A DNA stretch of 64,000 nt from Hydrolagus affinis (taxonomy: Eukaryota): positions 1 to 64,000 of the forward strand of contig JAAILG010000667.1 of assembly GCA_012026655.1 (NCBI GenBank), written 5' to 3'. Below the pieces are notes generated by a model that searched no databases, had not been told where the DNA came from, and saw nothing but the letters and a program-made list of their open reading frames with translations. Shown piece after piece: positions 19,331 through 22,300 of this stretch (position 1 is its first letter; every line of letters begins with the position of its first letter). The translations under genes and the position numbers were made by a program.

Positions 19331-22300
19331 CTGTTGAAGAGACAAAAAAACAGTTTTAAATGCAGTAAAACCTACAACATGCAGATCAAGCAAGATAAAT
19401 TGATACCTAATGTATGAATCATCCTACCAGACTCATTATTTAAGCCCTGCATGTGTCAGAGCCTCACTAAGTAACATTTACAGTCTCTGCAGCCCCAGTA
19501 GGTCAACTTTGTTCATCAGTAGAGATAGATCTTTATATAGAATACCATGCCTGGACTATTTAAACAGGACACAACAGATTCTAGACAATGTGTTCAGTTA
19601 TTAGTATTAATGCAAAGTAAACTCATTCTGCAATTGTATTGGTTACAGCAGAACTTGTGGCAGGAGGACAAGCTATACCATCAAAAAATATGAGTTTACC
19701 CATTACCATACTATTAAATAAATGTTAAATGGAGGCTCTAATTATCAGGCTTTCATTGCATCATGAATTTGTTCTGACAAAATATGTGTAATTAGTGAAT
19801 TCACCTCAAACTCCAGGTAATCTTTTTTCTGTCTGTATTCTTCTAGTTCTTTGCCCTTCACCTTCTTGTCAGGAGGATACGATTGATGCTCAGCAAGGTC
19901 CACAGTCATCGATTTCAATCTGGCTTCATGAGCCTTCACCTGTTCTTTCTGAAAAAATACAAACATGAAAATAAGGTACAGTAAAAGTCCGTTTATCCGG
20001 CACCCGCGGGACCTGGCCAATGCCGGTTAAACGAAAACCCAACACAAAAAAATGAACATTTTAACACATACTATATTAATAATAGACTAAATAATAACAG
20101 ATAATAACAGACTTTTGTTGTTCAGCTAAAAATTCACCTAAAAATCACCTTTGCTGGTAGATGCCTGGTTTGAAGCCATGATGCTGGGGTAGAGGTGTAC
20201 AGTCTATCATTAACTTCTGCAATGGCAGATGCCACGAGAAGGAAAAAAAACAGCAGCGTGACTTTAAAGCTCTACTAGCAGCAAGCCAAAATACCTGTAA
20301 AGTTCTCTTGTGCGACAATCGATTAATTAAATGCGCCACCGCGATTGTGCCGGATAACATCCGGTTAATCGGATGGGGACTTTTTTTTAATGTAACGGTT
20401 ATACGGAAGTTCCGATTGATCAAGTCACAGATAAACGGGCTTTTACTGTACTTTGTTTAGGCCCCTCATTGCAGCACTCTTAAGAAAGACATCAAAAGTC
20501 TGGCTTCCCTTTGGTTCAATAGGCATGGTCAGTCACCCTTGTAGCATAATGTTTCGGCCAGCAGAAGGTGGTGTTGCATTTTTAATGTCCAAGGAACATA
20601 TATTGATAATAGCGCTTTATAACACCATTGATACGTCTGATAGCGCTTCACAGAATATGCTGTAAAGTGTAGTGACTGTATGTTTTGTGGGCGAGTTGTG
20701 GCAGCCAATTGCGCACAGTATATATTCACCATTTAATATCATGAGGGTGAGTGATTATTACATCAGCAAATGATATGAGAGGAACTTGAATAGATGTTAC
20801 ATGTGTAATGAATACAAGTCAATGAAAACCGACATTATCCAATGTCAAACAGTGAGTATTTATGAGTATATAGCTGAGCAGTAGCTATAACAGGATAACT
20901 GGAGAACAAAATCGCTACATTCGCTAAAGGATTCAAACAAAATTCATTAAGATGAAATTCTGCATAGGATCATAGGAAAACAGTACATCAAGATCACAAA
21001 AGAAGGTGGCTCATCAGTATATATGATCCCATGTTTCCAGAAAAGCACCCTACCATCCTCCCAATGCTGCATTAAATGGGTTCAAGGTGCATCCTAGCCT
21101 CAGCTATCCTACCTGGTAACCCACTGAGTTGTTGAGTTGACTGATAAATAGAAATTATTAAGAAATATCCCTGAACTTTCAACACACATATTGATACCCA
21201 CCAGAGAAAGCCTGGTTGTTGTTGTTGGAAGAAGTGGTCGACTGAACTTCTTCTGGGAACCAATGGCTGCTGGAAAAGGTGGCGCGGAAAACATGCCTGT
21301 CACTAGATTTATCCGCGTGATCCAGGACTGCATCACCTCAGGACTCCTAATAACAACAACAACACATTTCAATAGCACCTTTCACGTTGGGAGGACGTCC
21401 CAAGGTCCTGGACAGTCAAGTTTTTCAGACCTGAAATGGGGTTGGGATCTGGGAGGGAAGGGTGGTGACCAAAGGTGGAGTCGAAGAGGAAGTTCTTGAG
21501 GCAGGACTTGAAGGAGGCTAAGGATCGGGTGAGGCCCTCGTGATTGCAAGATAGAATATGGAAGTTTGGAGGCAGAATGGCTGAAGGTTTGCCCGCTGAT
21601 GGTGGGGCAGGTGAGTCGGAGGACATGGAGTAGGCCGGAGCCCGTTGAAAGCATGAAGCAGACAGTTTGGTAGATTAGGAGGTCACAAAGATAGGGTGGG
21701 ACAATGCTATGGAGGGCTTTAAAGGTGAGGGGCGGGTTCTTGAATGGAATCCTCTGAATGGGTAAAAATTAGTAACATTAAAAAAGGAGCATTTCTGAAT
21801 GACAAACACACTGACAAAAATATAACAAAGCATAGGTTCAGGAAGCAGTGTCCCATTGATTATATTCGAAGATAACACACCCTGTCTGCACCTCAGAATA
21901 GTGACATGAGTAATGCCTCCCAGTAATTGGTAATGGTCTTAGAAAGGGAAGGTGCTATTGTTCTAGAGTTTGTTTTCTTGGACATATGTAAGGATCAGAA
22001 TATGCAGAACTATATGCTTGGAATCTTGGTGAAGTGTCAAAAAGGCACCATTGCAGGAGTCACTGTGCAATGCACACCTTTTCATTTGTCAATAAAAAAA
22101 GGCGATGCTAATCTGACCCTATTTAGGTTTTAATCATTCAACTCCTTGAATCCAGTACTTGATTCCCAAAACCAGTTCCTGATTTCATATCATAATTACG
22201 GGGTACATTGGGAAATCAGGGGAAACCCAGTCATGCTTTCCAAACTTGGCAATAGACAAACAATATAAATGTTTTGTTTCCTGTTTAATGGACATCTGGC

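What the first reader, a model, noticed from the sequence alone, without database searches (positions are those of the whole stretch)
21330..21790. L2 retroposon inserted inside a PSD splice acceptor: its (GTT)n tail forms the 3' splice site and the apparent old branch point is displaced ~410 nt
Seen: the acceptor of the conserved PH-end exon reads ...ggtgctattgaaatgtgttgttgttgttattag|GAGT. The L2 tail runs straight into the AG with no ordinary polypyrimidine tract. At the far edge of the L2 the minus strand reads gttACTAATttttacccattCAG: a consensus-like branch point (TACTAAT, 21768-21774), pyrimidines and an AG (21754-55). Inference: the insertion split the ancestral acceptor, leaving two competing 3' splice sites. 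Use of the distal one would add 407 nt and shift the frame, a possible poison/NMD switch. The proximal one would depend on the TE tail or on the distant branch point.
Basis: partly seen in the sequence, partly recalled or inferred. Interest (0 to 1): 0.7.

Follow-up and report, generated by a model that had tools for sequence, protein, structure and literature searches.

The report
LINE tail rebuilt a splice acceptor
An old fragment of a jumping gene sits directly in front of an exon of the PSD1 gene in a chimaera-type fish and its repeat tail now lies where the exon's splice signal must be read, but a close relative's RNA shows only normal splicing, the proposed second splice site is part of the jumping gene, and similar tail-built splice sites turn up at a few percent of sampled exons in this genome.

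Summary
The sequence is as described, but the switch is not supported. A 5'-truncated, about 17%-diverged LINE of L2 type (about 21760-21352, minus strand) ends five bases before a PSD1 exon; its (GTT)4 tail is the only U-rich tract. In RNA of a close relative, 7 junction reads use this acceptor and no distal junction is listed (threshold 3 reads; low power). The 'distal AG' is not an ancestral remnant: it belongs to the LINE (23 of 28 copies carry the G). It ranks 4th of 60 AGs in the intron. Fifteen AGs separate TACTAAT from the exon, so it is unlikely to serve it. The intron's T-richest stretch lies just 5' of the LINE, which fits a displaced old 3' end, but no empty site was obtainable. 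A branch point at -23 inside the LINE is likely, untested. The case is not unique: 8 of 284 sampled acceptors have a sense tail ending within 40 nt. My pre-set enrichment test failed (3 of 178, p=0.4). The scan earlier noted similar cases in a shark and a ray. Closest known: canine merle SINE at PMEL.

The parts
22647..22801 (-). Upstream PSD1 exon (155 nt, PH domain)
   Evidence: Pfam PH_9 E 3e-11; RNA depth 4.3-7.5 on the expected strand
21347..22646 (-). 1300-nt GT-AG intron
   Evidence: 7 junction reads (2+5) skip exactly 1300 nt; spliced frame open
21761..21834 (-). T-rich host stretch, likely the displaced old 3' end of the intron
   Evidence: T-richest 60-nt windows of the intron; no LINE similarity; empty site not seen
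21768..21774 (-). TACTAAT, branch-point-like motif; role as the old branch point doubtful
   Evidence: Sequence; would lie 5-15 nt from the AG in an empty site (arithmetic from the boundaries)
21754..21755 (-). 'Distal' AG, LINE-derived cryptic site
   Evidence: A in 24 of 28 and G in 23 of 28 copies; no junction listed; 4th of 60 AGs
21352..21760 (-). 5'-truncated LINE of L2 type, sense to the gene (ORF2 end, 3' UTR, tail); 5' edge uncertain within 21760-21766
   Evidence: 67 of 395 positions differ from the family majority; a longer copy carries an RVT_1 piece, E 3.8e-6, below the curated cut-off; both junctions are spanned by contigs of organism B
21368..21372 (-). TTGAA inside the LINE end, candidate new branch point (A 21369, position -23)
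   Evidence: One of only two U-N-A candidates in -15..-45; T21371 in 0 of 27 and G21370 in 1 of 27 copies; 0 of 70 tails have this triplet; untested
21352..21363 (-). (GTT)4 tail, the U-rich tract of the acceptor
   Evidence: the acceptor scores at the 22nd percentile of 284 native acceptors
21347..21348 (-). Acceptor AG in use
21201..21346 (-). Downstream PSD1 exon (146 nt)
   Evidence: 98% identical in protein to Callorhinchus milii PSD1; RNA depth 5.6-7.7
21215..21226 (-). (AAC)4 run in the exon, perfect complement of the tail
   Evidence: predicted pairing depends on the window folded (0.01-0.06 or 0.98)

Best explanation
An old, 5'-truncated LINE fragment lies five bases before the AG of a PSD1 exon, that AG is the one seen in spliced reads of a close relative, and the LINE's own 3' end likely supplies the replacement splice signals: its (GTT)4 tail as the U-rich tract and a likely branch point at -23. 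Shown: the element and its boundaries, the LINE origin of the distal AG, and use of the proximal AG. Inferred: the element landed between the old T-rich tract and the AG and pushed the tract about 410 nt upstream, where it would be inactive. Also inferred: the insertion was tolerated because the tail is U-rich and carries no AG in its last 30 nt, and because exon definition would favour the 146-nt exon over a 553-nt one. It is one of a recurring set of tail-built acceptors in this genome, not a regulatory switch.
For: 7 of 7 listed splice-junction reads use 21347. Exon depth matches the upstream exon, while depth at 21630-21692 is 0.06 in X15 (1.46 in X14, which has about 1 across parts of the intron and reads of other copies). 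AG-free zone of 30 nt, with U-N-A candidates only at -23 and -36, both inside the LINE; a native PSD1 acceptor (24054) has the same TTGAA at -22 as its sole candidate. Distal CAG is in the family majority. T-rich stretch 5' of the element. Insertion shared with organism B. 8 of 284 sampled acceptors have a sense tail ending within 40 nt; 6 of 284 have GTTGTTG in the last 30 nt, all of them tail-like by eye. L2-clade target duplications are 3-5 bp (PMC4245944 passages), so a visible long duplication is not expected.
Against: No empty site was seen, so how much of TTATTAG and of the tract is host is unknown. No lariat data. RNA is one sample of a relative about 1.5% diverged, 27-30% of each run read, NMD not blocked; 0 of 7 leaves minor distal use up to roughly a third open. 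The acceptor is the weakest of 11 PSD1 acceptors, and 7 other AGs in the intron score higher in my matrix. This copy lacks the GTAAT that 80 of 182 tails keep. L2-clade membership was not tested by phylogeny.
Confidence: 0.75

Rival explanations
1. Poison switch: the displaced branch point and pyrimidines team up with the LINE's internal CAG (21754) to form a regulated second acceptor that adds 407 nt and triggers NMD.
For: The site scores above the proximal one (7.99 against 5.41) and has TTAAT at -25 and CTAAT at -16. Its use would give a premature stop upstream of two more introns. RNA power is low and such transcripts would be degraded.
Against: No such junction listed; almost no depth over the extension in X15. 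Three other AGs in the intron score higher. The AG is LINE-derived. No conservation evidence beyond one close relative.
Confidence: 0.08
2. The old branch point at 21769 or 21778 still serves the exon's AG from about 420 nt away, with the LINE looped out.
For: The lowest-energy fold of 21340-21800 pairs 8 bases at the LINE's 5' start with the exon start. Distant branch points exist (PMC7969005).
Against: 15 intervening AGs; the fold is weaker than shuffles (z +1.27, 90 of 100 shuffles as good) and that helix lies at the edge of the folded piece.
Confidence: 0.04
3. Part of the apparent tail is host sequence: the LINE primed on a GTT-like stretch already in the acceptor, so the element supplied the branch point but little of the tract.
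For: The paralogous acceptor in L039 is GU-rich without a LINE. This copy lacks the AATTTT that precedes the tail in most copies.
Against: (GTT)n is the family tail in most of the 29 copies, and the T-rich stretch lies upstream of the element.
Confidence: 0.08
4. The tail is a regulatory element: it pairs with the (AAC)4 run in the exon, or binds UG-repeat proteins (CELF, TDP-43), and tunes inclusion of a 146-nt frame-shifting exon.
For: Perfect 12-bp complement; pairing probability up to 0.98 when 21150-21800 is folded. Paired GT/AC repeats direct splicing in zebrafish (PMC4691745 passages).
Against: Pairing is only 0.01-0.06 in two shorter folds; the local fold is not better than shuffles (z -0.86). 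The zebrafish pairing spans introns, not exons. The TTTT peptide is shared with C. milii, so it may predate the insertion. Exon depth shows no sign of much skipping.
Confidence: 0.05

Closest known systems
Canine merle allele: SINE at the PMEL intron 10/exon 11 boundary (PMC7349775, passages read)
   Same: A retroelement inserted at an acceptor moves the branch point away, its tail lies next to the original AG, and its body carries a cryptic AG.
   Different: Merle is a young antisense SINE with poly(T), a 15-bp duplication, documented cryptic splicing and a phenotype. Here it is an old sense LINE with a (GTT)n tail, no clear duplication, and only the original AG seen in use.
TE-supplied branch points, MIR insertions in OGDH intron 4a (PMC7969005, section 18 read)
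   Same: An inserted element can bring a new branch point and remove the use of an old one; AG-exclusion logic applies.
   Different: Those are engineered insertions in a distant-branch-point intron; here the insertion is natural and the branch is unmapped.
Mammalian TE under-representation zones near exons (PMC3088655, passages read)
   Same: Concerns the same position, under 50-100 nt from an acceptor.
   Different: In human and mouse all TE classes are depleted there. In this genome's sample, sense tails within 40 nt were not rarer than further upstream.
Zebrafish (AC)m-(GT)n introns (PMC4691745, passages read)
   Same: GU-rich repeats stand in place of a pyrimidine tract at a fish acceptor.
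   Different: Dinucleotide repeats paired across the intron; here a trinucleotide LINE tail whose only complement that I noted lies in the exon.

Membership tests
L2-clade LINE | High-copy, 5'-truncated element with a shared 3' end and simple-repeat tail | tested here: met
   copies share the 3' end and (GTT)n tail and end at scattered 5' points
L2-clade LINE | Reverse transcriptase ORF upstream in longer copies | tested here: inconclusive
   RVT_1 piece in L005, E 3.8e-6, 27.2 bits against a cut-off of 29.6; 2 of 5 fragments scanned hit
L2-clade LINE | RT phylogeny groups with L2 rather than CR1 or Rex1 | not tested
No reference set in hand.
L2-clade LINE | Short 3-5 bp target duplication | tested here: inconclusive
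   No clear duplication here or in 29 other old copies; the best 8-mer match is equalled by 138 of 477 T-rich windows
Merle-type length-dependent cryptic acceptor | Insertion between branch point and AG | tested here: inconclusive
   T-rich stretch upstream of the element; empty site not obtained
Merle-type length-dependent cryptic acceptor | Cryptic AG in the element is used | tested here: not met
   0 distal junctions listed against 7 proximal reads; low power
Poison/NMD splice switch | Alternative product has a premature stop upstream of later junctions | tested here: met
   (on paper only)
Poison/NMD splice switch | Alternative isoform detected, rising on NMD block | not testable with these tools
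   No NMD-blocked RNA; none seen in untreated RNA
Poison/NMD splice switch | Deep conservation of the alternative site | not testable with these tools
   All unique pieces laid came from close relatives
Distant branch point intron | Long AG-free zone between branch point and AG | tested here: not met
   15 AGs between 21769 and 21348
PSD1 (EFA6A) gene | Sec7 then PH domain; closest relatives named PSD1 | tested here: met
   Sec7 and PH_9 hits; 98% to C. milii PSD1 and 83-91% to shark and ray PSD1-like proteins

The most novel reading that the evidence does not exclude
The 3' end of this LINE family (GTAAT followed by TTTT and GTT repeats) is a ready-made branch point plus U-rich tract. Copies landing just before an AG replace the host's splice signals instead of being purged, and have rebuilt the acceptors of some 1-5% of introns, thousands of exons, in this chimaera-type genome. 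The PSD1 site is one member, which later lost GTAAT and gained a new branch point.
Probability: 0.35. Interest if true: 0.62.

Novelty: new member of a known kind. Interest (0 to 1): 0.33.

Why it matters
As a single locus it is a tolerated insertion of a known kind, with no sign of regulation. The wider point is the frequency. If a few percent of acceptors in cartilaginous fishes are built from LINE tails, a retroelement family has been a bulk source of core splice signals for constitutive coding exons, in the zone where mammals purge such insertions. That can be tested directly with an annotated chimaera genome.

Tried and rejected
Empty site: the genome search holds no relatives. No RNA holder was listed by the run index; RNA came from two raw-read runs added by study. 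X13 and X12 gave only short, near-identical unique pieces, none across the LINE junctions. A search for short contig ORFs that might translate the orthologous intron end found no chimaera hit (best 86%). The first lay was swamped by repeats, and its splice joints were not among the rows shown. A 9-bp target duplication (TGTTACTAA / TGTTATTAG) was rejected as chance (138 of 477). Loop-out of the LINE was rejected. The tail-exon helix is unstable to the choice of window. The pre-set enrichment test failed: 3 of 178 acceptors, rate ratio 1.39 against 41-400 nt, p=0.4; mirror donors 1 of 139, Fisher p=0.41. The NAGNAG site at +3 scores -0.77 and no read was listed for it. PDB gave only a weak spectrin PH hit. 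A paper on alternating GU tracts that I recalled was not held and is not used. Literature searches listed no paper on this locus or on LINE-tail acceptors in cartilaginous fishes. I saw most hits only as listings, no supplements were read, and most subscription journals are not in the library.

Full report
Gene and intron. The window holds a Sec7 plus PH gene on the minus strand. The exon at 21346-21201 is 98% identical in protein to Callorhinchus milii PSD1 and 83-91% to shark and ray PSD1-like proteins, so the host is inferred to be a chimaera-type fish; earlier scan notes on this genome use the same word. The upstream exon is 22801-22647, the intron 22646-21347, and the spliced frame is open.

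The element. The 461-nt query has 7971 first-look candidates in the genome; 40 were scored, 39 of them other copies at 73-78% identity. In an alignment of 29 of these, similarity runs from about 21760 to the tail at 21352: 5 of 30 mismatches in 21731-21760, 21 of 30 in 21761-21790. The copy differs from the family majority at 67 of 395 positions, near the old end of the range 0.09-0.19 seen in the other copies. A longer copy carries a reverse-transcriptase piece below the Pfam cut-off. The L2 label is recalled from motifs and was not tested by a tree. Contigs of organism B span 20968-21408 and 21579-21996 with 5 and 8 differences, so both junctions are shared with a close relative.

The distal AG is not ancestral. 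C, A and G at 21756-21754 are the family letters in 24 of 29, 24 of 28 and 23 of 28 copies. In a matrix built from 284 native acceptors it scores 7.99 (42nd percentile) and ranks 4th of 60 AGs in the intron. The acceptor in use scores 5.41 (22nd percentile), the weakest of 11 PSD1 acceptors. Sequence strength alone does not pick the used site; exon definition across the 146-nt exon is the likely reason (established knowledge, not tested).

RNA. Two raw-read runs of one sample of organism B gave 2 and 5 reads that skip exactly 21347-22646. No other splice joint was listed; listing needs 3 reads from 2 starts. Depth is 5.6-7.7 on the exon, 4.3-7.5 on the upstream exon, and 0.06 (X15) or 1.46 (X14) at 21630-21692, where reads of other copies and unspliced RNA contribute. 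This shows that the proximal site dominates. It cannot exclude minor or NMD-hidden distal use.

Branch point. Fifteen AGs lie between TACTAAT and the exon, and the LINE folds no better than shuffles, so a distant branch is unlikely; new AGs more than about 8-12 nt past a branch point are normally chosen (PMC7969005 section 18). The AG-free zone is 30 nt and the only U-N-A candidates are at -23 and -36, both in the LINE. The -23 motif depends on two changes rare or absent in other copies (T21371 in 0 of 27, G21370 in 1 of 27; triplet in 0 of 70 tails). This is suggestive but noticed after the fact.

Displacement. The T-richest 60-nt windows of the intron (21834-21770, T 0.53; non-LINE mean 0.32; last 60 nt of the ten other PSD1 introns 0.38-0.52) sit just 5' of the LINE, which supports the idea of a displaced intron end. 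With the LINE removed on paper, the TACTAAT adenine would be 5-15 nt from the AG, shorter than usual, while TTTAAT would be at 14-25. L2 duplications are 3-5 bp (PMC4245944 passages) and none can be read with confidence. The empty site could not be obtained.

Is it unusual? The window has 21 tail hits in 64 kb, and 51 of 182 tails have an AG within 5 nt. I sampled internal exons of six protein families (fetched). From 153 myosin and kinase matches, 106 gave a single-AG acceptor after filtering, and 5 of 106 had a sense tail ending within 40 nt (discovery set). I then fixed a test in the notebook. Of 396 matches entered for the four new families, those with fetched DNA and a single AG gave 181 acceptors, 178 after removing duplicates and short introns. 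Three of 178 qualified: rate ratio 1.39 against 41-400 nt, p=0.4; mirror donors 1 of 139. Enrichment was therefore not shown by the pre-set test, but there is also no sign of depletion. After the fact, against a background of 0.179 tails per kb per strand, the test set has 9 tails within 100 nt against 3.2 expected, and donors 2 against 2.5. Pooled, 8 of 284 acceptors qualify (2.8%, interval 1.2-5.5%). In 6 of the 7 cases where the tail forms the core tract, the tail's GTAAT lies at -23 to -35 (five from the list, one counted by eye), against 80 of 182 tails keeping GTAAT at all. This selection is post hoc and the position partly follows from it. Acceptors were placed from profile matches, not from annotation, so a few are wrong.

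Comparison. The closest known case is the canine merle SINE (PMC7349775 passages), where the cryptic AG is used; here it is not seen. Mammalian TEs are depleted within 50-100 nt of exons (PMC3088655 passages). Earlier scan notes describe tail-built acceptors in a shark ING1 gene and a ray desmoglein gene; I did not check them, and they prompted the sampling above. Searches listed no paper on this locus or class.

Verdict. The feature is real and old, and it appears tolerated. The tail likely serves as the U-rich tract, the poison switch is unsupported, and the locus is one of many. Interest 0.33; the class-level reading would deserve about 0.6 if a genome-wide count confirms it.

Noticed in passing
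window 21363-21352 and 21226-21215 (minus): The (GTT)4 tail is the exact complement of an (AAC)4 run inside the downstream exon; predicted pairing is 0.01-0.06 or 0.98 depending on the stretch folded.
   Followed up: partly
G000 C3736:19825, C8938:19066, C3736:23074, C120306:813, C12415:5966, C9755:139, C6361:2408 (match coordinates): Seven myosin, kinesin and tyrosine-phosphatase acceptors whose tract is a LINE-type tail, six with GTAAT at -23 to -35.
   Followed up: partly
window 21450-21449 (minus): The highest-scoring AG of the whole intron (10.02) lies inside the LINE 3' UTR and would add 102 nt, a multiple of three; no junction was listed for it.
   Followed up: no
window 20741-20814: A contig of organism B differs at 17 listed positions here, beside a repeat at about 20634-20740; possibly an insertion that differs between the species.
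   Followed up: no
window 23956-23919 (minus): Another tail-type hit ends about 60 nt after the donor of the PH exon that starts near 24053, so that element begins almost at the donor.
   Followed up: no
L039 (G000 C85950): The paralogous acceptor of the same intron is GU-rich with only 10 of 16 pyrimidines and no evident LINE.
   Followed up: partly
window 21200: The donor of the exon is a weak-looking GTGGGT and the reading frame runs on for about 30 codons into the intron.
   Followed up: no
L033, L034 (G000 C194876, C191405): Two short contigs carry nearly the same PSD-paralogue exon (one residue differs), likely haplotypes assembled apart.
   Followed up: no
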